From Candidatus Poribacteria bacterium (lineage in GTDB: Bacteria > Poribacteria > WGA-4E > WGA-3G), in assembly GCA_964291315.2 (NCBI GenBank), contig OZ219753.1, positions 640,001 to 704,000 on the forward strand: DNA of 64,000 bases. The letters run 5' to 3'. Below the pieces are notes generated by a model. It was not told the origin of the DNA and made no database searches. It worked only from the letters and a program-made list of their open reading frames with translations. Below are positions 33,488 through 57,699 of this stretch, one piece after another. Position 1 is the stretch's first letter. Every line of letters begins with the position of its first letter. A program made the position numbers and the translations under genes.

Positions 33488-33664
33488 GCAGCTGAAAACG
33501 GAGAGCATATAGCTGTACAACTATTCCTCGAAAACCACCTTCCTTGATACATATTTTCGTCTGGTTTTTAGATTCCGGATGTGTTATAATGATGTTTGTA
33601 TGCCGAAGTTTTCTATGATAAACGGTGCAACTTGAGTGCTGAGATAAAAAAGGAATGTTTTGTA

Positions 33665-34615
33665 ATGAAGCAGATAGAAATTCCCGGAATCAATAAAGAT
33701 ATTTCACAACTGATCCTGGGGACCATGATGTTTTCCCCGTTGAAATTTGACTACAGCACCGAGATGCTAGATGCTTTTTTTGCAGCCGGTGGAAATGCGC
33801 TCGACACAGCTCACGGTTATGGTGGCGGCGATAGCGAGATGCTCATTGGACTTTGGATGCGGCAACGCAACAACCGTGACGATGTTTTTCTTATTGATAA
33901 AGGTGGGCATCCACAAGTTAAGGTTCCACGTCCGCGTCTCTCTCCTGAAGAACTAAAAGCCGATCTTGATGAAAGTATTGCACGGCTCCGGACTGATTAT
34001 ATAGACCTCTACATGCTCCATCGGGATGATCCTGTGATTCCGGTCAGCACAATCATCGACTATTTGAATGAAGAAATAGGTGCTGGACACCTTCGTGCTA
34101 TTGCTGCCTCTAACTGGCAGCCGCAGCGTATCATTGAGGCTAACACCTACGCGGCGGAAAACGGACTTGCTGGGTTTGTCGCTTGCAGCAACAACATTAG
34201 TCTAGCTGTGCCGAGGGAGCCGATGTGGGCAGGTTGTGTTTGCGTTGATGATGCTGCACGCAAATGGCATAACGAAAGTCAGTTTCCATTGATGCCGTGG
34301 TCTTCACAAGCACGAGGTTTTTTCAGCGGGGCATTTACACAAGAGAATCCCAAAGACCGCGATATGGTACGCGTTTACTATAACGATAACAACTTTGAAA
34401 GGCTTGAACGCGCAAAAGAATTGGGAGTGAAGTCTGGCTACTCTGCTATTCAAGTATCTCTAGCGTATTGCCTAAATCTTTCTTTTCCTGTTTTGCCGGT
34501 TGTTGGCCCTTTGAATCTAACAGAAATGGAATCTTCCGTCGGCGCGGCTGCACTTAAACTTGATAATGCTGAGATGCAATGGCTTAACTTAGAAACGGAG
34601 AAAAACCCACTATGA
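33665..34615 (+). CDS. Aldo/keto reductase
   Basis: LILGTM, DTAHGYG, RLRTDYIDLYMLHRDD, ASNW. Confidence 0.92.
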   Translation: MKQIEIPGINKDISQLILGTMMFSPLKFDYSTEMLDAFFAAGGNALDTAHGYGGGDSEMLIGLWMRQRNNRDDVFLIDKGGHPQVKVPRPRLSPEELKADLDESIARLRTDYIDLYMLHRDDPVIPVSTIIDYLNEEIGAGHLRAIAASNWQPQRIIEANTYAAENGLAGFVACSNNISLAVPREPMWAGCVCVDDAARKWHNESQFPLMPWSSQARGFFSGAFTQENPKDRDMVRVYYNDNNFERLERAKELGVKSGYSAIQVSLAYCLNLSFPVLPVVGPLNLTEMESSVGAAALKLDNAEMQWLNLETEKNPL

Positions 34616-35697
34616 TGGTTCGGGTCCTTTTGCTACTGATTTGTCTCCAATTCATCAGTCTCTCGGTCGCCTTTGCTCAAGAAAGCTGAGGGGCCTGAAG
34701 CAACCCTGCAATCCCGCGTGGCGGGATCGGGTTAAGTGAAGTCAGTTTGACTTCAGAAAAGATGAAACGGTTCGAGGGGACATTCAGTATGATGGGGTGG
34801 TTTGATGCACAAGGCGGACACTTGGAAAAAAAAGGGATTTCCGCCGCCGGGCAAGTCATAGATGTGCCGTTGCATCGACACCATGTTACCCTAAACATTT
34901 TTCGCGTTGATGTTGGACTAAAATACCACTTTAATTTGCAGTGGATGCTTGAAGCAAATATCCCGTACGAAGTCAAAGCCCAAGAGGCGACTATTGAGGA
35001 AATTGAGCCTGTTTCCGACGCTCAACTCGAAGCGATTATACGTAATCGAGACAACCATCATCGAAATGAGACCTACACGGGGCCCACGGACACAGATGTT
35101 TTTTTGGGATATCGGACGTCAAGCGTTTTGATGGCAGATGATTTCTTAGTGGGGCGTATCGGAACAACAGTCCCATTCGGCAAAACCGAAGAAGACCCCT
35201 GGAAATTAGGAGATGCTGGTCTTGAGCATCTCCATATTCAGTTTGGCACTGGGACCTTTAATCCGGTCGCGGATTTACATTACGGTGTCCCGATCTACAA
35301 CGGACTCAGAGCAAATGGCAGTATCCGCGGGAAGTTTCCATTCTATGAAAATAACAAAACTTATCGTGGTTCCAGAGTGTTTACCTACACAGCAGGGCTG
35401 AGTTATCGTCTCAATGCTTGGCTTTCGTTTCAAACAGGTTATCTCGGATTTTATCAATCTTACGCGTATTGGGCAGGCGAACAGGACATCAATACAGGGA
35501 TCCGCTTCAGCATGGCATCCGTGGGGGCATTGGTTGCAACACCTTACGATATTCCAGTATCTCTGACACTGATGTTGCCTTTGAGCCAAGAAACGCTCTA
35601 TGATGACACGGCTGCCCTGTTAGAAGGGGTATATGACGAGAGCGATGCTTTCGAATTTGGTCCCTTAGTATCTCTCACCGTCTTTTATGCATTTTAG
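34612..35697 (+). CDS. Putative selenoprotein: secreted His-rich outer-membrane beta-barrel-like protein with N-terminal UxxU motif (U26, U29; 361 aa)
   Basis: ATG 34612 overlaps the upstream stop (ATGA); signal peptide MMVRVLLLLICLQFISLSVAFA; in-frame TGA at 34687 and 34696 in frame with track ORF 34747-35697; hairpin right after; QFGTGT motif; terminal Phe. Confidence 0.75.
34702..34733 (+). promoter_or_regulatory. Candidate bacterial SECIS element
   Basis: AACCC-tgca-ATCCCGC-GTG-GCGGGAT-c-GGGTT; G-led apical loop 19 nt after the second UGA and 28 nt after the first. Confidence 0.7.
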
Positions 35698-35736
35698 CAT
35701 CAGAGGAACGTTATACTTATAGGGCATTAAGAAAAA

Positions 35737-37875
35737 TTGATGAGAATCAAATTGCCGAATTTTTCAATGCGATACTTCGTAATTCTAACGTTGGCTATTG
35801 TCTGTATTGGTTGCGGGGTTCCAAACAATCCATATCCGAAGTCTGAACAGAACGAGGCTATCTATTATGATACGTTTCGTGCGGAGCCAAAGCATTTTGA
35901 TCCTGCAGTGTCCTACAGTTCGGACGAATATAGATTCCTCCAGCAAATTTATGAGCCGCCGCTACAGTATCATTACCTAAAGCGTCCGTACGAGTTAGTG
36001 TCGTTGACGGCTGAAACTATACCGCAACCTCAATATTTCGATGCTGCTGGGGCCCCGTTGTCATCCGATGCACCAGCGTCGTCCGTTGCGCGCGCTGTGT
36101 ATGAGATCCGTATTCGTCCGGGCATCATGTATCAGCCCCATCCGTGTTTCGCAAAAACCGAAAGTGGGGAGTGGCGTTATCGCGATCTGACAGCAGTAGA
36201 TGTGAAGGGTTTTACCCAAGTTAAAGATTTCCTGATGACAGGGACGCGTGAACTTATCGCCGCGGATTATGTTTATCAGATTAAACGCATGGCAGACCCA
36301 AAGGTCTCCTGTCCTATTCTCAGCACGTTGCAAGATTATATAGTTGGTATGGAAGCGTATGCTAATGCCGTTTCTGATGGTGAGGCTGATCATCCTTTCC
36401 CGGGCGTAGAAGTCGTGGATCGGTATACTTATAAAATTGTTCTCAAGGCGAAATATCCTCAGTTCGTGTACTGGTTAGCAATGCCCTTCTTCGCCCCAAT
36501 GCCTCATGAGGCAATTGATTTTTACGCTCAACCTGTTGTGAAAGAACGGAACATTACAATTGATAGATTTCCCGTAGGAACCGGTGCCTATCGGATAGAA
36601 ACACTTATCTCACATAAGGAGATAGTACTCGTCAAAAACGAAAACTTTCGGGTCGAACACTACCCGTCAAGCGGGGAAGCTGTGGATAGAGAAAACGGAC
36701 TTTTGGACGATGCCCGGGAAATCATTCCGTTTATACCGAAAGCTGTCTACAAATTAGAAAAAGAATATATTCCGCGTTGGAATAAATTCTTACAAGGTTA
36801 TTACGACATCTCCGGCATCTCCTCAGATACGTTTGATAGTGCGGTCGTTTTCAGCGATACCGGAAGTCCGTCAGCGAGCGAAGCATTGGGAACGAAAGGG
36901 ATAATTTTACGGACTAACATAGAACCGACGACCCTCTATTTAGCCTTTAATATGCTTGATGATACTGTTGGCGGGTATACTGATAAGAAACAGAAACTCC
37001 GTCAGGCGATTTCGATTGCTATTAATTATGAAGAGTACATTGAAATTTTTCTGAATGGACGCGGTATAATCTCACACAGTCCGATTCCGCCGGGTATCTT
37101 TGGTTACGAAGCCGATGAGATCGGTATTAATCCTTATATGTACGATTGGGATGAGGAGAGGAAGCATCCAGCTCGCAAATCTATTGAAGTAGCACGTAAA
37201 CTTCTCGCGGAAGCGGGGTATCCGGGGGGACAGGATAGTAAGGGTAACCCTCTTGTCATATCTTTCGACAATACATGGAACACGGCTGGTGCCACGGCTG
37301 CTTTAACGTGGATGCGGAACAAGTTAGAACAGCTCGGAATTACCATGGAAAGTCGTACTACTGACTATAATCGTTTTCGAGATAAGGTAAAGAACGGGAA
37401 TTTTCAGATGATCTTTTGGGGATGGCATGCTGACTACCCCGACGCGGAGAATTTTATGTTCCTTCTCTATGGTCCGAACAGCAAGGCCCGACACGATGGG
37501 GAGAACGCTGCTAATTATGACAACCCAGAATTCGATCGTCTCTTTGAAGAGATGAAAAATATGACAAATTCGCCAGAACGCTTGGCGATCATCCGAAAGA
37601 TGAAGCGCCTGCTGCAACAAGATGCCCCTTGGGTTTTTACCTATCATCCTGTTGATTTTGATTTGTCACACGAATGGCTAAAAAACAATAAACCGAGTTC
37701 CATGGGGACGAGAGCGCTAAAATATCTTCGTGTTGATGCAACGCAACGGGCGGAAAACCGTCAAGAGTGGAATCGGCCTATTCTCTGGCCTCTATGGTTA
37801 TGTGCTGCATTCCTTATTTTAGGGACGGTTCCTGCTATCATGACGATTTGGAAACAGGAACGAGGCAAGTCGTAA
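35737..37875 (+). CDS. ABC transporter substrate-binding protein, family 5 (peptide/nickel), lipoprotein with C-terminal transmembrane helix
   Basis: Lipobox CIGC; FDPA, IYEP, PVGTG, LRQAI..AIN, WHADYPD; hydrophobic C-terminal segment. Confidence 0.88.
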   Translation: MMRIKLPNFSMRYFVILTLAIVCIGCGVPNNPYPKSEQNEAIYYDTFRAEPKHFDPAVSYSSDEYRFLQQIYEPPLQYHYLKRPYELVSLTAETIPQPQYFDAAGAPLSSDAPASSVARAVYEIRIRPGIMYQPHPCFAKTESGEWRYRDLTAVDVKGFTQVKDFLMTGTRELIAADYVYQIKRMADPKVSCPILSTLQDYIVGMEAYANAVSDGEADHPFPGVEVVDRYTYKIVLKAKYPQFVYWLAMPFFAPMPHEAIDFYAQPVVKERNITIDRFPVGTGAYRIETLISHKEIVLVKNENFRVEHYPSSGEAVDRENGLLDDAREIIPFIPKAVYKLEKEYIPRWNKFLQGYYDISGISSDTFDSAVVFSDTGSPSASEALGTKGIILRTNIEPTTLYLAFNMLDDTVGGYTDKKQKLRQAISIAINYEEYIEIFLNGRGIISHSPIPPGIFGYEADEIGINPYMYDWDEERKHPARKSIEVARKLLAEAGYPGGQDSKGNPLVISFDNTWNTAGATAALTWMRNKLEQLGITMESRTTDYNRFRDKVKNGNFQMIFWGWHADYPDAENFMFLLYGPNSKARHDGENAANYDNPEFDRLFEEMKNMTNSPERLAIIRKMKRLLQQDAPWVFTYHPVDFDLSHEWLKNNKPSSMGTRALKYLRVDATQRAENRQEWNRPILWPLWLCAAFLILGTVPAIMTIWKQERGKS

Positions 37876-37926
37876 GCTGCCTATAGTCTTTATCAAACAT
37901 GAGTGGCGCAGGGCAAATGATAAAAA

Positions 37927-38907
37927 ATGCTTAGCTATATTATCCGTCGAACCCTTTACGCGATTCCAATTTTAATCGGCGTAAACCTCATTGTCTTTTT
38001 GCTTTTTTTCGTGGTGAACTCGCCTGACCAAATGGCGCGTACAATTCTCGGAGAGAAAAATATTACGCAAGAAGATGTTAATAATTGGAAAAAACAAAAC
38101 GGGTATCATCTGCCACTTTGGTTCAATGCAGAGGTATCTGGAAGCCAGCGATTTACGGAAACTATCTTCTTTCAAAAATCGTTTAAACTCTTTCTCTTTG
38201 ATTTTGGAACCTCGGATAGGAACAATATTAATATTACGTCACAAATTTCACAGCGGATGTGGGCAAGTTTCGCTATTGCACTGCCAACATTTCTACTTGG
38301 GCTCTCTGTGAATATTACCGTTTCAATGATTGTGGCTTACTATCGTGCAACTTACGTCGATTTCTGGGGCACAATCGTTGCTGTTATCCTTATGTCTGTG
38401 TCAGCGCTCTTCTATATCATTGGTGGGCAATGGATATTCGGGAAAATATTGCGCCTCTTCCCGATTTCTGGATATAATGCTGGTACCAACATGTTCAAAT
38501 TCGTAGCACTGCCTGTGATGATTGGTGTTATTAGTGGGATCGGTGTCGGAATTCGTTTCTATCGGACAATATTTCTTGAGGAGGTCAATCGGGACTATAT
38601 ACGAACGGCACGGGCAAAAGGGTTAAGTGAAGTAATAATTCTTTTTAAACATGCACTTAAGAACGCTATGATTCCGATTTTGACAAACGTTGTATCAACG
38701 ATCCCGTACCTCTTCCTCGGAAGTTTGTTGATAGAGGCATTTTTTGCAATTCCGGGATTAGGAAGTTTTCTGATCGAAGCTATTCAAGCACAAGATTTCG
38801 CAATTGTGCGGAGCATGGTGTATCTTGGGTCGGTGCTGTACATTATCAGCCTGGTTCTAACTGACATTAGTTATACTTTAGTGGATCCGCGTGTCCGATT
38901 TGAGTGA
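37927..38907 (+). CDS. ABC transporter permease (OppB/DppB-like)
   Basis: YIIRR, DFGTS, DYIRTARAKGL, HALKNA, LVDPRVR. Confidence 0.93.
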   Translation: MLSYIIRRTLYAIPILIGVNLIVFLLFFVVNSPDQMARTILGEKNITQEDVNNWKKQNGYHLPLWFNAEVSGSQRFTETIFFQKSFKLFLFDFGTSDRNNINITSQISQRMWASFAIALPTFLLGLSVNITVSMIVAYYRATYVDFWGTIVAVILMSVSALFYIIGGQWIFGKILRLFPISGYNAGTNMFKFVALPVMIGVISGIGVGIRFYRTIFLEEVNRDYIRTARAKGLSEVIILFKHALKNAMIPILTNVVSTIPYLFLGSLLIEAFFAIPGLGSFLIEAIQAQDFAIVRSMVYLGSVLYIISLVLTDISYTLVDPRVRFE

Positions 38908-38919
38908 GAAAAAGGAAAA

Positions 38920-39357
38920 ATGATTGTACAAAATAGGAGCTATCAAATTCTGCAAGGCGCGATGAGTCTGCTATTGGGAAGCATCAGTATTTGTTTATTG
39001 TTAACGCTCCGGCATTCAGGGTATCCGAGCATGATACTTTCCACTTTTCTGATAGTAGGGCTCACCTTGATTTTTTCGGGCGACTATCTTCTTAATCCTT
39101 TTAAATTGCCAGTCACACCGCGGAAACAGGCTTTAGCAAGTGATATTGGACTCATCGCTTACGGGGTCCTCTATTTTAGTATCGCTATGTCGAAACTCTT
39201 GCAACCACATTGGATAGTTGTTAATCTACCGGTCTTTTTACAACCGATTTGGATACGCCGCGGATTAGCTGGTGTCGGAATCGTCTTGATTGCTACGGGC
39301 GTTTACGGCATCTATCATTTATGGATAGATCCATTGCCAGAAGATCCTGCGGAATAG
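38920..39357 (+). CDS. Hypothetical membrane protein, about 4 transmembrane segments
   Basis: AAGGA site, 12 nt after the permease stop; four hydrophobic stretches. Confidence 0.65.
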   Translation: MIVQNRSYQILQGAMSLLLGSISICLLLTLRHSGYPSMILSTFLIVGLTLIFSGDYLLNPFKLPVTPRKQALASDIGLIAYGVLYFSIAMSKLLQPHWIVVNLPVFLQPIWIRRGLAGVGIVLIATGVYGIYHLWIDPLPEDPAE

Positions 39358-54993: not shown

Positions 54994-57699
54994 CTAAAGT
55001 GGTTCTAGGCGGACCGGACACACTTTTAGCTCAGCTGTGTGAGTAACCGGGTCGTAGCCGGAACCAGTTAATAAATTAACCGGTACATCTGCGAAGCTGA
55101 AACTAGCGAAAACTGTGCCGCGCGGTGAACGGTGCGTTGCTTTCACTTTGATAGTGATGCTTCCGCGCGCACTACTCATTTTACACCATTCGCCATCTGC
55201 TATTTTCCATTTCTTGAGGTCCTCCGGATTGACTTCCAACGATTCCTCAGGTAAAAGATAATCAATCCCTTCTGCTCTACCTGTTTGCGTCCGGGTGTGA
55301 TACGACTGCAAACGCCTCCCCGTTGTCAGCCAGATTGGAAACGCTTCGCTAATTGTCTCAGCAGGGTCTCGGTAATGTACATTTGAAAAGATACCACGCC
55401 CGTTGACAAATGTCTTTTTATGGAGTATCGGTGTGCCGGTATGTCCTTTGTGGGGTACGGGCCATTGATACTCGCCTTTCTCAATGCGTTCCCAATCTAG
55501 ACCTGCATAAATAGGCGAAACTCGACAGAGCTCATTGAAAATCGGTTTCGGGGCATCGAAATCAAAACCGTTAAGACCGAGGCGTTGGGCGATTTGACAA
55601 ATAATCCACCAATCCGGTTTTGCTTCACCTGGCGGTGGCACTGCAGCGCGCATCCGCTGGACCCGTCGTTCTGTATTCGTGCAGACCCCATCCGTTTCAC
55701 CCCATGCGGTTGCTGGCAGCACAACATCAGCGAGTTCTGCGGTCTCAGTCAGGAAAATGTCAATAACGACGAGGTGCTCCAGCGAGGCGAGAGCGTGTTC
55801 ACAATGTCGCCGGTCCGGGTCAGAGATCAACGTGTTTTCGCCGTCAATGAGCATTGCGTAGATGCTGTCACCACAGAGCTCCAAAGCAGTAACCTTAGTA
55901 ATACCTTTCTCTAAATCAATTTCTCTGCCGTATTCTGCTTTAAACTTTGCCTGATGCTCAGTATCTGTAACAGACTGGAATCCGGGGTAGTTATTTGGTA
56001 ATGCACCGCTATCCCCTGCCCCTTGGATATTATTCTGTCCGCGCATCGGGTTAATACCAGTTCCCTCTCGCCCGATATTGCCGGTCATCAAGGCAAGATT
56101 GCACAAGCTCTGAACATTCTCAACACCACAGATATGCTCTGTGATTCCTAACGTGTAGTAGATAGCACTCTTATCGGCTCCGCCGTACCACATAGATGCG
56201 GTCTCAATATCTTTTGCGGGCACTCCTGTAATGGTTTCTGCCCACTCCGGGGTCCACTGACTGATGTGCTCAAAGAATTCCTCGAATCCGGTTGTGCGAT
56301 TTTTGATGAATTCTTCATCAATTAAACCTTCGCGAGCGATGACGTGTGCCATTCCCAACAGGAGAGCTGTATCCGAACCGACGCGGAGCGGCAGATAGAG
56401 GTCTGATATTTCTGATAACCCGATGCGTCGTGGATCTGCAACAATCAGTTTTGCCCCGCGGGCAATCGCTTTTTTTAGTCCGGTTGCGGCGACGGGATGG
56501 CACTCGGTCATATTTGTCCCGATACAGAAAATCACGTCCGGTTTTTGCATGTCGATGAGTGGATTAGACATCGCCCCACGTCCGATTGTCGCTGCCAGAC
56601 CGGCAACGGTCGGGGCGTGTCAGGCGCGGCTACAATTGTCGATATAGTTTGTACCAAACCCGGCACGAATAAACTTCTGCATGAGATATGCGGCCTCGGT
56701 GGGTGCGCGCCCAGAAGCAACACCGTAGATGCTATGTCTACCATGTTGTACATTGACCGTGTGGAAACCCTTGGCGGCCCTATCAAGGGCATTATCCCAT
56801 GTAGTCTTGTGCAGTTCCCCATCAGCGCCGCGGATGAGCGGGATTTTCAACCGATCTGGATGTTGAACAAAGTCGTAAGCGAATTGCCCTTTGACACAAA
56901 GTGCCCCCTGATTTGCGGGTCCGTCCATCGCCGGATGAATGCCAACAATCCTCTCATGTTTCGTCAGCACATCAACGGAACACCCGACCCCGCAATATGG
57001 ACAGATTGTCCGTGTTTTGTCAGGGACAGCGTCTTCTATATCGTTAAAGGCGCGGAGTGCTTTTTTGTCAGCAAGTGCCCCGGTCGGGCAAGTCTGGATG
57101 CACTGTCCACAAAAGGTGCAAGCCGAGTCCTTGAGGAGTCTGTCAAACTCGGTTGTAATTTGGGTATGAAAGCCGCGGTTCATGATGTTAATGGCATGGT
57201 CACCTTCTTGTTCAGCACAGACACGGACGCATCGATAACAGGAGATACAGAGGTCATAATCTCTGAGGATAAAAGGGTTGTCGTCATCAGCTTTGCTTGC
57301 GCCAGATGTTGCCCCGGTTATAGGTGGATCGTTAATTTTGTATTTGTCGCGGAGGTCTGCGAGTTCTCTGGAAGCATACCCTCGTAATGGGGATACATCT
57401 ACCTCCCGGTTCTCACTAATAACCATTTCGACAAGCGTTTTTCGGTAAGCCTCTATTGTATGAGTTGTCGTTCTGACTACCATCCCGGGTGTTGCTTTTG
57501 TTGTGCAAGATGGCACAGGATTTCGCGCACCCTCTAGCTCGACAATACAGAGACGACAGCCACCGAAAGGTTCAAGCCTTGGATCATAGCAGAGCGTTGG
57601 AATCTCTTTTTCATGGCGTTGGGCGATCTCAAGGATCGTTTCACCCTCGGAGAAGGGAACTTGAACCTCATCAATTTCGATTTTATGCGTCATGATCAT
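54994..57699 (-). CDS. fdhF: Selenocysteine-containing formate dehydrogenase alpha subunit (FdhF/FdhA type with N-terminal Fe-S domains), U360, 901 aa
   Basis: Track ORFs 56620-57699 and 54994-56571 are in one frame, joined by DNCSRA-TGA-HAPTVAGL; CPYCGVGC, RGQNNIQG, LTTGR motifs. Confidence 0.95.
56582..56619 (-). promoter_or_regulatory. SECIS element of the formate dehydrogenase gene
   Basis: UGA CAC GCC CCG ACC GTTGCC-GGTCT-GGCAGC, closely resembling the E. coli fdhF SECIS in position and GGUC loop region. Confidence 0.9.

What the first reader, a model, noticed from the sequence alone, without database searches (positions are those of the whole stretch)
34612..35697. Hidden double-selenocysteine (U-G-A-U) outer-membrane protein heading an ABC importer locus
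Seen: the track ORF at 34747 extends upstream in frame through two TGA codons (34687, 34696) to an ATG at 34612 that overlaps the previous stop codon. The extension is a clean signal peptide ending in AFA, so the mature protein would begin Q-E-S-U-G-A-U, spaced exactly like CxxC. A hairpin (ATCCCGC-GTG-GCGGGAT, extended by AACCC/GGGTT) follows with a G-led loop 19 and 28 nt after the two UGAs. The body is His-rich (LHRHH, NHHR, EHLH), has alternating beta-strand patterns and ends in Phe. A family-5 binding protein and a permease follow directly. Established: bacterial SECIS elements lie immediately 3' of the UGA, and the Sec-type FDH in this window indicates Sec machinery. Inference: an exported beta-barrel with a diselenide or soft-metal-binding N-terminus feeding an ABC importer, with one SECIS possibly serving two UGAs. 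I do not recognise this as a described selenoprotein family.
Basis: partly seen in the sequence, partly recalled or inferred. Interest (0 to 1): 0.93.

Follow-up and report, generated by a model that had tools for sequence, protein, structure and literature searches.

The report
Double-selenocysteine outer-membrane barrel protein
This gene encodes an exported outer-membrane barrel whose first mature residues carry two selenocysteines (U-G-A-U), an apparently undescribed selenoprotein family of sponge-associated Poribacteria whose cysteine relatives sit inside mercury and copper resistance gene clusters.

Summary

- **Reading frame:** it runs from ATG 34612 through TGA 34687 and TGA 34696 to the stop at 35697.
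- **Conservation:** both TGAs are kept across four Poribacteria families. All 150 listed matches in a scan of 176 genomes carry in-frame TGA.
- **Cys/Sec exchange:** paralogs and one ortholog read C-x-x-U. Bacteroidota relatives read C-P-A-C-S-N-P at the same place.
- **RNA structure:** Its loop starts 19 nt after UGA2 and 28 nt after UGA1, which fits the published bacterial SECIS model. A second conserved hairpin follows at 34738-34754.
- **Sec machinery:** selA, selB, selC and selD are present, and TGA is otherwise an ordinary stop.
- **Fold:** the body folds as a barrel of about 12 strands, like FapF and the COG4313 channel. It has six invariant or near-invariant histidines and a disordered N-terminal arm.

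The ABC-importer link is confined to this genus, and the transporter gene set is incomplete. In 19 of 22 Bacteroidota loci the Cys form follows an HMA-thioredoxin gene, among MerTP, MerA, CsoR and Cu-ATPase genes. The most likely function is therefore handling of thiophilic metals at the outer membrane. That function is inferred, not shown. The family matches no Pfam or NCBIfam model and none of the 119 families in a 2026 review table.

The parts
34612..35697 (+). Full coding sequence of the double-Sec outer-membrane barrel (361 codons plus TAG stop). The start ATG overlaps the TGA stop of the upstream gene.
   Evidence: Full-length matches with 2 in-frame TGA in relatives.
34612..34677 (+). 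Signal peptide, residues 1-22 (MMVRVLLLLICLQFISLSVAFA). Predicted cleavage after A-F-A, so the mature protein starts at Q23.
   Evidence: Read from the sequence. The same n/h/c pattern ending ...F[AVS]-Q occurs in all relatives, and AF2 puts a helix at residues 2-16. No signal-peptide predictor was available, so cleavage is inferred.
34687..34689 (+). UGA1 = Sec26. This position alternates between U and C among relatives.
   Evidence: TGA in 33 of 39 distinct sequences and TGY (Cys) in 6 of 39.
34696..34698 (+). UGA2 = Sec29.
   Evidence: TGA in 39 of 39 distinct Poribacteria sequences. Cys in Bacteroidota and other distant homologs.
34702..34733 (+). H1, the SECIS-like stem-loop. Outer helix AACCC (34702-06) / GGGTT (34729-33). 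Inner helix ATCCCGC (34711-17) / GCGGGAT (34721-27). Apical loop GUG (34718-20).
   Evidence: MFE fold. Inner helix: 85.3% of cells paired, covariation score 0.229 against 0.101 in shuffles, 0 of 500 shuffles as high. The loop is G-led and lies 19/28 nt from the UGAs, within the 16-37 nt of the published bSECIS model.
34738..34754 (+). H2, a second conserved hairpin: GAAGTCA - GTT - TGACTTC. Role unknown; its loop lies 46 nt after UGA2 in this window.
   Evidence: 94% paired, covariation 0.206 against 0.156, 0 of 500 shuffles as high, with AU-to-GC double changes at two pairs.
34771..35694 (+). Beta-barrel body, residues 54-361. Invariant H70, H90, H149, H150, D160, H206 and W287, near-invariant H208, and a C-terminal Phe.
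   Evidence: AF2. Foldseek to FapF and the COG4313 channel. Invariant columns of the 80-sequence alignment.
33596..34615 (+). Upstream aldo/keto reductase gene, whose stop overlaps the barrel's start codon. Genus-specific neighbour.
   Evidence: PF00248, 9.4e-49. Present upstream in 22 of 22 other ortholog loci of the genus.
35737..37875 (+). Family-5 solute-binding protein (712 aa). Genus-specific downstream neighbour.
   Evidence: PF00496, 9.2e-48. Only weak OppA/NikA-type NCBIfam scores, all below cut-off. Present in 21 of 22 other ortholog loci.
37927..38907 (+). Single ABC permease (BPD_transp_1).
38920..39357 (+). 145-aa hydrophobic protein of no known family that ends the co-directional gene run.
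   Evidence: No Pfam or NCBIfam hit. Conserved after the permease in L064 and L065. Sequence shown.

Best explanation
The gene encodes a genuine selenoprotein. A signal peptide is removed after A-F-A. The mature protein then begins Q-E-S-Sec-G-A-Sec-S-N-P on a flexible arm of about 30 residues, followed by an outer-membrane barrel of about 12 strands of the COG4313/FapF type lined with invariant histidines.

Both UGAs are read as selenocysteine by SelB and tRNA-Sec. They are directed by the stem-loop at 34702-34733, whose G-led loop lies 19 nt and 28 nt downstream of the two codons. A second conserved hairpin (34738-34754) may assist.

Proposed function (inferred): the two selenolates form a high-affinity site for thiophilic metal ions of the Cu(I)/Hg(II)/Ag(I)/Cd(II) class at the periplasmic mouth of the channel. 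The site would capture the ion as it passes the outer membrane, or hand it to or from periplasmic metallochaperones. The direction of transport and the metal are unknown.

Shown: the frame, conservation of the TGAs, Cys/Sec exchange, the supported hairpins, the Sec machinery, the barrel fold, and the metal-resistance context of the Cys forms.

Inferred: signal-peptide cleavage, a periplasmic arm, metal binding, and which hairpin serves which UGA.
For: **Selenoprotein**
- Orthologs in 22 of 24 other genomes of the genus, and in other families of the order, carry 2 in-frame TGAs.
- In the phylum scan 140 of 176 genomes match, and all 150 listed matches carry 1-3 TGAs.
- The motif Q-[ED]-S-U-G-A-U-S-N-P is kept at 35-50% overall identity.
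- The first site is Cys in the genus paralogs (C-P-A-U), in one g5 ortholog whose sister species have U, and in a g4 paralog.
- Distant homologs read C-P-A-C-S-N-P or C-A-A-C-x-N-P.
- In the genome: selB 328.8 bits, tRNA-Sec 78.1 bits next to selB, selA 588.9 bits, and selD 357.3 bits, itself with one TGA.
- ARAGORN finds one tRNA-SeC(tca), one ordinary tRNA-Cys and no second UCA tRNA.
- TGA ends 426 of 1960 long open frames, so there is no general recoding.

**SECIS**
- The inner helix has covariation 0.229 against 0.101 in shuffles (0 of 500 as high).
- Its loop offset of 19 nt compares with 18 nt (FDH) and 17 nt (selD) in the same genome.
- It meets the published constraints: loop of 3-9 nt, G in the first two loop positions, 16-37 nt from the UGA.

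**Fold**
- AF2 gives pLDDT 87.8 and pTM 0.83, with a disordered N-terminal arm.
- Foldseek finds FapF at 1e-11 and the COG4313 channel 4rl8 at 3.7e-9.

**Metal link**
- In 22 Bacteroidota loci the Cys form lies directly after an HMA-thioredoxin fusion gene in 19 of 22. MerTP occurs in 12, ArsR in 11, CsoR in 8, a MerA-like gene in 4 and a Cu P-type ATPase in 4.
- MerA (501 bits, cut-off 454) and MerTP (288 bits, cut-off 180) are confirmed in L070.
- One homolog carries a C-terminal HMA domain.
- Poribacteria lineages place small CC...CC proteins, a CDF transporter or a TolC-like gene beside the barrel.
- The same genome encodes two exported HMA lipoproteins with G-M-T-U-G-S-C.
Against: - No experiment shows selenium in the protein or metal binding.
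- This window's own neighbours (an aldo/keto reductase, a peptide/nickel-type binding protein, a permease) are not metal-specific.
- The genome has no MerT, and no MerA reaches the cut-off (396 bits against 454). A mer-type mercury pathway is therefore not evident in Poribacteria.
- Gene context differs between Poribacteria families.
- MerA-like genes lie within 6 kb in only 4 of the 22 Bacteroidota loci.
- Invariant histidines suit borderline metals or catalysis better than Hg.
- AF2 does not place the N-terminal arm (pLDDT below 50 for residues 16-28 and below 70 up to about residue 50).
- RNAalifold on the mixed 39-sequence alignment returned no consensus hairpin.
- In most lineages the thermodynamic optimum uses a different 5' arm than the covarying helix.
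- The sequences compared are relatives, so the shuffle controls overstate support.
Confidence: 0.55

Rival explanations
1. It is the same double-Sec barrel, but the U-x-x-U pair is a redox centre (diselenide/selenol exchange) rather than a metal ligand. It might gate or lock a plug, or reduce a substrate in the oxidising periplasm, serviced in Bacteroidota by the neighbouring thioredoxin-domain protein.
For: - CxxC, CxxU and UxxC are classic redox motifs, and most selenoproteins are thought to be redox proteins (review text).
- The conserved neighbour of the Cys form carries a thioredoxin domain beside its HMA domain.
- A Thioredoxin_3 gene occurs in 5 of 22 loci.
Against: - That thioredoxin neighbour is fused to an HMA metal-binding domain, and it sits among MerTP, CsoR, Cu-ATPase and MerA genes.
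- No thioredoxin-type neighbour was seen beside the Poribacteria genes examined.
- The two roles are not mutually exclusive.
Confidence: 0.2
2. This is the first reader's reading: the barrel is the outer-membrane entry port that feeds the adjacent family-5 binding protein and permease of an ABC importer (for a metallophore, nickel or a peptide).
For: - The genes are co-directional and tightly spaced (34612-39357).
- The arrangement is kept in 21-22 of 22 other ortholog loci of the genus.
- The binding protein gives weak NikA/OppA-type scores.
Against: - The arrangement is absent from the paralog loci and from every locus of other families examined.
- There is one permease and no ATPase in the neighbourhood.
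- Bacteroidota Cys forms never showed this context in 22 loci.
Confidence: 0.1
3. One or both UGAs are read not as Sec but as Cys, through a SECIS-dependent tRNA of the tRNA-ReC (SelC*) type. Such tRNAs were reported to be enriched in genomes with UXXU hydrogenases. Alternatively the UGAs are read as another residue.
For: A 2026 paper reports tRNA-ReC-like genes in about 56% of genomes with UXXU-type hydrogenases (passages read). Sequence alone cannot tell Sec from Cys at a UGA.
Against: ARAGORN finds one tRNA-SeC and one ordinary 75-nt tRNA-Cys(gca) among 47 tRNAs. The tRNA-Sec Rfam model has a single hit above its gathering score. The genome is 95.2% complete, so absence is not proven.
Confidence: 0.04
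4. The TGAs are real stops. The true gene starts downstream (TTG 34747 or a later ATG, as most gene callers assumed), and the upstream frame is non-coding.
For: Public gene calls for this family are mostly 300-302 aa and begin after the TGAs.
Against: - Such a product would be a barrel without a signal peptide.
- The upstream frame encodes a conserved signal peptide and the motif that aligns with CxxC-SNP of full-length Cys homologs.
- Both TGAs are conserved across four families.
Confidence: 0.01

Closest known systems
COG4313 / PF13557 (Phenol_MetA_deg) outer-membrane channels (PDB 4rl8) and FapF (PDB 5o65/5o67)
   Same: Predicted barrel fold. Foldseek gives 3.7e-9 (TMt 0.68) to 4rl8 and 1e-11 (TMt 0.63) to FapF. 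The nearest language-model clusters are PF13557 'transporter family' proteins. 10 of 80 family members weakly match PF13557.
   Different: The window protein has no Pfam hit at E <= 0.01. It has an N-terminal CxxC/UxxU-SNP arm and a set of invariant histidines. I found neither listed as a feature of those families; my knowledge of their biology is recalled, not tested here.
Mer/Cop soft-metal relay proteins (MerP, MerT/MerTP, CopZ) and their known Sec forms (NF041115 UxxU metal-binding selenoprotein; NF045683 MerT/CopZ fusion-like selenoprotein)
   Same: A pair of Cys/Sec three residues apart. The Cys forms lie in the same gene clusters. Sec replaces Cys in the metal-binding pair, as in families listed in the review table.
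   Different: It has no HMA or MerT domain. It is a membrane barrel, and its motif lies at the extreme mature N-terminus rather than in a ferredoxin-like fold. The mer reviews I read in passages draw outer-membrane passage as diffusion, with no dedicated protein.
Outer-membrane selenoproteins in the 2026 review table: the FCYXU-type TonB-dependent receptor (NF049945) and the GSU2204 MtrB/PioB-family barrel (NF041027)
   Same: They are exported outer-membrane beta-barrel proteins that contain Sec.
   Different: Those have one Sec each and belong to other barrel families. The NCBIfam scan of the window protein returned no family.
UXXU-type Group 4 [NiFeSe] hydrogenases (Front Microbiol 2026, PMC13582414)
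   Same: Two UGAs three codons apart, followed by one SECIS-like stem-loop with a G-led loop. CXXU and UXXU forms coexist in one family. Poribacteria are among the phyla listed (passages).
   Different: That is a cytoplasmic Ni-Fe enzyme with an internal motif. Here the motif lies at the N-terminus of an exported barrel and two tandem conserved hairpins follow it.
Eukaryotic selenoprotein L (UxxU diselenide)
   Same: A UxxU motif spaced like CxxC. This is recalled from memory and comes from no call.
   Different: It is a thioredoxin-fold protein of aquatic eukaryotes with a 3'-UTR SECIS. The two are unrelated in fold, location and decoding.

Membership tests
Bacterial selenoprotein (SelB/SECIS-decoded UGA) | In-frame UGA conserved in orthologs, with the frame conserved on both sides | tested here: met
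   2 TGAs in orthologs of 22 of 24 other genus genomes and in other families. All 150 listed matches of the phylum scan carry TGA. The signal peptide and motif are conserved upstream.
Bacterial selenoprotein (SelB/SECIS-decoded UGA) | Homologs with Cys at the Sec position | tested here: met
   CxxU in paralogs and one ortholog. CxxC in Bacteroidota and other distant homologs.
Bacterial selenoprotein (SelB/SECIS-decoded UGA) | Stem-loop 3' of the UGA that fits the bSECIS model: 3-9 nt loop, G in the first two loop positions, 16-37 nt from the UGA, MFE <= -7.5 kcal/mol | tested here: met
   Loop GUG, 7-bp upper stem, 19 and 28 nt from the UGAs. Model constraints quoted from the review. Covariation. 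bSECISearch itself was not available.
Bacterial selenoprotein (SelB/SECIS-decoded UGA) | selA, selB, selC and selD in the genome | tested here: met
   all above the curated cut-offs. ARAGORN finds tRNA-SeC(tca).
Bacterial selenoprotein (SelB/SECIS-decoded UGA) | Selenium demonstrated in the protein | not testable with these tools
   Needs 75Se labelling or mass spectrometry.
PF13557 / COG4313 outer-membrane channel family | Match to the Pfam model above its gathering score | tested here: not met
   The window protein has 0 families at E <= 0.01. 10 of 80 aligned relatives match at E <= 0.01, the best at 1.1e-6. One homolog scores 24.8 bits against a cut-off of 22.
PF13557 / COG4313 outer-membrane channel family | 12-stranded barrel fold like PDB 4rl8 | tested here: met
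   Foldseek E 3.7e-9, TMt 0.68. DSSP shows 13 strand segments from residue 54, two of them (153-158 and 161-170) probably one kinked strand. The strand count is an estimate.
mer (mercury resistance) operon component | Encoded within an operon with MerA and a Mer transporter | tested here: inconclusive
   Met for some Cys-form homologs: MerTP in 12 of 22 loci and a MerA-like gene in 4 of 22, with MerA and MerTP confirmed above cut-off in L070. Not met for the window's genome: no MerT, and the best MerA score is 396 bits against 454.
HMA (heavy-metal-associated) domain proteins | Ferredoxin-like HMA domain carrying the CxxC | tested here: not met
   No PF00403 hit in the window protein. Only one homolog has an added C-terminal HMA domain.
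Known UxxU selenoprotein families (NF041115 metal-binding protein, TIGR02605 FmdB-type, Prx-like) | Match to the family model | tested here: not met
   The NCBIfam release 20.0 scan gave 0 families for the window protein and for the Cys homolog P0125.
   One permease and no ATPase nearby. Linkage occurs only in orthologs of one genus.

The most novel reading that the evidence does not exclude
Poribacteria run a selenium-based relay for thiophilic metals across the cell envelope. An outer-membrane channel carries a U-x-x-U arm and passes ions to or from periplasmic HMA lipoproteins with U-x-x-C. Its Cys-form relatives in Bacteroidota would then be the missing dedicated outer-membrane component of mer/cop systems.

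In addition, the two UGAs nine bases apart may be served by a composite SECIS. Two nearly in-register alternative 5' arms, eight bases apart, compete for one 3' arm. As the ribosome advances from UGA1 to UGA2, the hairpin could re-form one step downstream, with the second hairpin H2 as a helper.
Probability: 0.2. Interest if true: 0.88.

Novelty: new member of a known kind. Interest (0 to 1): 0.72.

Why it matters
- **New selenoprotein family.** It would add a family with the rare U-x-x-U arrangement. It is universal in four families of sponge-associated Poribacteria, and public gene calls truncate it throughout (mostly 300-302 aa).
- **An unnamed barrel family in metal-resistance islands.** The Cys forms lie in Hg/Cu resistance islands of Bacteroidota. 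The mer reviews I read in passages draw outer-membrane passage of Hg(II) as diffusion. A dedicated barrel with a thiol or selenol arm makes that step directly testable.
- **A natural test case for Sec decoding.** It offers two UGAs nine bases apart, followed by two supported hairpins, for asking how bacterial SelB decodes closely spaced Sec codons.

Tried and rejected
- **Rfam:** no family in the window at gathering scores. Only a chance miRNA hit at E 1.4 around the site.
- **RNAalifold** on the mixed 39-sequence alignment gave no hairpin consensus, because lineages use different registers.
- **Alternative helix A** (5' arm on the N-P-A codons): 82.4% paired, but covariation equals the shuffles (0.096 against 0.096, 244 of 500 as high). 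It is kept only as speculation, although it is the MFE choice in most lineages.
- **MFE z-scores** of the 66 nt from UGA2 average -2.23 in Poribacteria (n=39) and -1.22 in Bacteroidota Cys forms (n=22). These used mononucleotide shuffles, and the contrast is modest.
- **PDB by sequence:** no meaningful hit.
- **The search for related loci** with the 80-sequence alignment failed because no stretch was conserved enough. It was repeated with 8 sequences.
- **Plasmid collection:** no match to the Cys form.
- **Earlier findings of this scan:** nothing to show.
- **Sequencing runs:** no RNA holder listed, so nothing can be said on expression.
- **Own genome:** MerT not found. MerA is below its cut-off.
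- **Phyletic profile of Sec-HMA lipoproteins:** they also occur in genomes without the barrel (f3 29 of 29 against 10 of 29). Co-occurrence is therefore not informative.
- **Literature searches** for a mer-associated outer-membrane protein (with passages in 65, 66, 68) and for Poribacteria selenoproteins or UxxU found no description of this family.
- **Not run:** Complex prediction, and a second structure job to dock the N-terminal arm. Model coordinates are not returned, so the arm's position could not have been read.
Full report
**Observation.** The sequence is as described. ATG 34612 overlaps the TGA stop of an aldo/keto reductase gene (33596-34615). The frame runs through TGA 34687-89 and TGA 34696-98 to TAG 35695-97. 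The product (361 residues) begins MMVRVLLLLICLQFISLSVAFA|QESUGAUSNPAIPRGGIG and ends in Phe. The 81 nt after the first UGA fold into two hairpins (-27.9 kcal/mol, z -1.89). The first is AACCC...ATCCCGC-GUG-GCGGGAU...GGGUU (34702-34733). The second is GAAGUCA-GUU-UGACUUC (34738-34754). Contigs of two sequencing runs match the stretch exactly. A related strain in two more runs differs at 15-22 positions, none in a TGA (one study, possibly including the source sample).

**The TGAs are conserved and exchange with Cys.**
- A six-frame search of 41 related genomes matched 37 of them. Orthologs in the window's genome and in 22 of 24 other genomes of the genus carry two in-frame TGAs. Every genome of the genus also has a paralog of 56-60% identity with one TGA; the only full-strength match without one covers residues 70-361 alone. 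Most matches in three other families of the order also carry two.
- Across the phylum, 140 of 176 genomes match at E <= 1e-20: f1 111/111, f2 11/11, f3 10/29, f4 7/7, and seven further families 0/17. All 150 listed matches carry one to three TGAs; 95 further matches were not listed.
- Translations show an almost invariant Q-[ED]-S-U-G-A-U-S-N-P after a signal peptide that varies in sequence but not in character.
- Among 39 distinct sequences the second site is TGA in 39. The first site is TGA in 33 and TGY (Cys) in 6: four paralogs of the genus (C-P-A-U), one paralog of genus g4 (C-S-A-U), and one ortholog of genus g5 (C-G-A-U) whose sister species read U-G-A-U.
- One locus (L011) was dropped from these counts by my motif filter because it reads S-N-L. 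It does have both TGAs. Five re-fetched loci were duplicates and were removed.
- An exhaustive profile-free search of 1.84 billion representatives found 379 relatives. The full-length distant ones read C-P-A-C-S-N-P, C-A-A-C-R-N-P or C-P-A-C-Q-N-P at the same place.
- Public gene calls for the Poribacteria proteins are mostly 300-302 aa, that is, truncated after the TGAs. Two database entries show W at these positions and were evidently translated with another code.

**Decoding.**
- The genome (95.2% complete) encodes selB (328.8 bits) beside tRNA-Sec (78.1 bits), selA (588.9 bits) and a selD that itself contains a TGA (357.3 bits).
- ARAGORN finds 47 tRNAs: one tRNA-SeC(tca), one ordinary tRNA-Cys and no second UCA tRNA. 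I therefore found no sign of the Cys-inserting tRNA-ReC discussed for UXXU hydrogenases.
- TGA ends 426 of 1960 open frames of 300 codons or more, so it is a normal stop here.

**RNA structure.** I aligned 84 nt around the UGAs from 39 distinct sequences and counted named helices.

| Helix | Window position | Cells paired | Covariation (observed / shuffled) | Shuffles as high |
|---|---|---|---|---|
| H2 | 34738-54 | 94.0% | 0.206 / 0.156 | 0 of 500 |
| A (5' arm eight bases upstream, same 3' arm) | 34702-09 with the 3' arm of B | 82.4% | 0.096 / 0.096 | 244 of 500 |

- Helix B has 25 cells with changes on both sides, against 7.6 expected. One pair shows AU, GC, CG, GU and UG.
- H2 has AU-to-GC double changes at two pairs. 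In some lineages these changes alter the encoded residues while keeping the pairing.
- Helix A is nevertheless the thermodynamic optimum in most lineages. Genera g4, g7 and g8 build the first hairpin in registers of their own.
- RNAalifold on the mixed alignment found no consensus.
- The loop of helix B begins 19 nt after UGA2 and 28 nt after UGA1. The FDH and selD genes of the same genome have G-containing loops 18 and 17 nt after their UGAs.
- The published bacterial SECIS model asks for a 3-9 nt loop, G in the first two loop positions, and 16-37 nt of spacing. Helix B meets this for both UGAs.
- H2 lies 46 nt after UGA2 in this window and 40 nt in most relatives, so it falls outside the model. 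Its role is unexplained.
- All of these sequences are relatives, so the shuffle controls overstate significance.

**Protein.**
- No Pfam or NCBIfam family matches.
- AlphaFold2 with an 80-sequence alignment gives pLDDT 87.8 and pTM 0.83. Residues 54-361 form a barrel. The region between the signal-peptide helix and the barrel (residues 16-50) is low-confidence.
- Foldseek finds FapF (1e-11) and the COG4313 channel 4rl8 (3.7e-9), then FadL-type channels.
- Language-model neighbours are PF13557 'transporter family' clusters. 10 of 80 relatives weakly match PF13557.
- H70, H90, H149, H150, D160, H206 and W287 are invariant and H208 nearly so.

**Gene context.**
- Within the genus, the reductase upstream (22 of 22 other ortholog loci) and the family-5 binding protein downstream (21 of 22) are constant. 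The set has one permease, a 145-aa membrane protein and no ATPase.
- That arrangement is absent from the paralogs and from the other families. Their neighbours are instead a TonB-dependent receptor, a BlaI/BlaR1 pair, a CDF cation-efflux protein, a TolC-like protein, and small membrane proteins with two Cys-Cys pairs directly upstream.
- The Cys forms were found in 22 Bacteroidota MAG loci. In 19 of the 22 the gene lies directly after an HMA-thioredoxin fusion gene.
- Within 6 kb of these loci lie MerTP (12 of 22), ArsR-type regulators (11), CsoR (8), MerA-like reductases (4), copper P-type ATPases (4) and multicopper oxidases (2).
- MerA (501 bits, cut-off 454), MerTP (288 bits, cut-off 180) and a copper ATPase were confirmed with NCBIfam.
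- One distant homolog carries its own C-terminal HMA domain.
- The window's genome lacks MerT, and no MerA reaches the cut-off. It does encode two tandem HMA lipoproteins with G-M-T-U-G-S-C, a type widespread in the phylum.

**Mechanism.**
- Shown: the items above.
- Established knowledge: the termini of outer-membrane barrels face the periplasm, selenolates are deprotonated at neutral pH, and they bind soft metals more tightly than thiolates.
- Inferred: after export and cleavage, the Q-E-S-U-G-A-U arm sits at the periplasmic mouth, or inside the pore near the histidines. There it ligates a thiophilic metal ion that crosses the outer membrane and exchanges it with periplasmic HMA proteins.
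- I put about 0.9 on 'genuine double-Sec exported barrel' and about 0.55 on the metal-handling function.
- A purely redox role for the pair is the main rival.

**Comparison and novelty.**
- The 2026 review table of 119 prokaryotic selenoprotein families (section 7, parts 1-2 read) lists outer-membrane selenoproteins: a TonB receptor with CxxU and an MtrB/PioB barrel. It also lists three UxxU families, but nothing that corresponds to this one.
- The NCBIfam models behind that table do not match.
- Passages of two mer reviews show outer-membrane passage as diffusion.
- Searches found no description of this family.
- Supplementary tables of the underlying screens could not be opened.
- I therefore file it as a new selenoprotein family, a new member of a known kind. 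It has an unusual placement, and it gives a useful functional lead for its Cys-form relatives.

Noticed in passing
Own genome outside the window: G000:C4:1112873-1113268 and about 1113446-1113727 (+): Two tandem lipoprotein-type HMA (MerP/CopZ-like) genes with an in-frame TGA in the metal-binding motif (G-M-T-U-G-S-C). In the phylum scan 160 of 176 genomes match at E <= 1e-8, and most listed matches carry one TGA.
   Followed up: partly
window about 55585-56853 (-): A molybdopterin oxidoreductase (formate dehydrogenase type) with Sec in C-S-R-A-U-H-A-P. A classic SECIS with loop GGUCU starts 18 nt after the UGA.
   Followed up: partly
Own genome outside the window: G000:C4:247697-248737 (-), locus L062: A paralog of the barrel (56% identity) that reads C-P-A-U. 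It is preceded by a 144-aa membrane protein with two Cys-Cys pairs. Similar small CC...CC proteins precede the barrel in genera g7 and g8 (L057-L059).
   Followed up: partly
window 34738-34754: The second hairpin H2 is conserved with compensatory changes, but it lies 40-46 nt after UGA2, outside the usual SECIS spacing. Its function is unexplained.
   Followed up: partly
window 34702-34717 and the same place in relatives: Two similar 8-nt segments in tandem (on the N-P-A and I-P-R codons) can each pair with the same 3' arm. The resulting alternative hairpins have loops starting 20 nt after UGA1 and 19 nt after UGA2. Only the second shows covariation.
   Followed up: partly
G141:C5:4400-5479 (phylum scan): One ortholog is reported with three in-frame TGAs instead of two. 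I did not look at it.
   Followed up: no
Own genome outside the window: G000:C4:721940-722863 (-): selD itself contains an in-frame TGA (Sec-type selenophosphate synthetase), followed by a small hairpin with loop AGG.
   Followed up: no
Database proteins P0192 and P0169: Public translations of two family members show W at the TGA positions (D-S-W-G-A-W-S-N-P). This suggests that a TGA=Trp code was applied to those contigs.
   Followed up: no
window 38920-39357 (+): A 145-aa hydrophobic protein of no known family follows the permease. It is conserved at that position in two other genomes of the genus.
   Followed up: no
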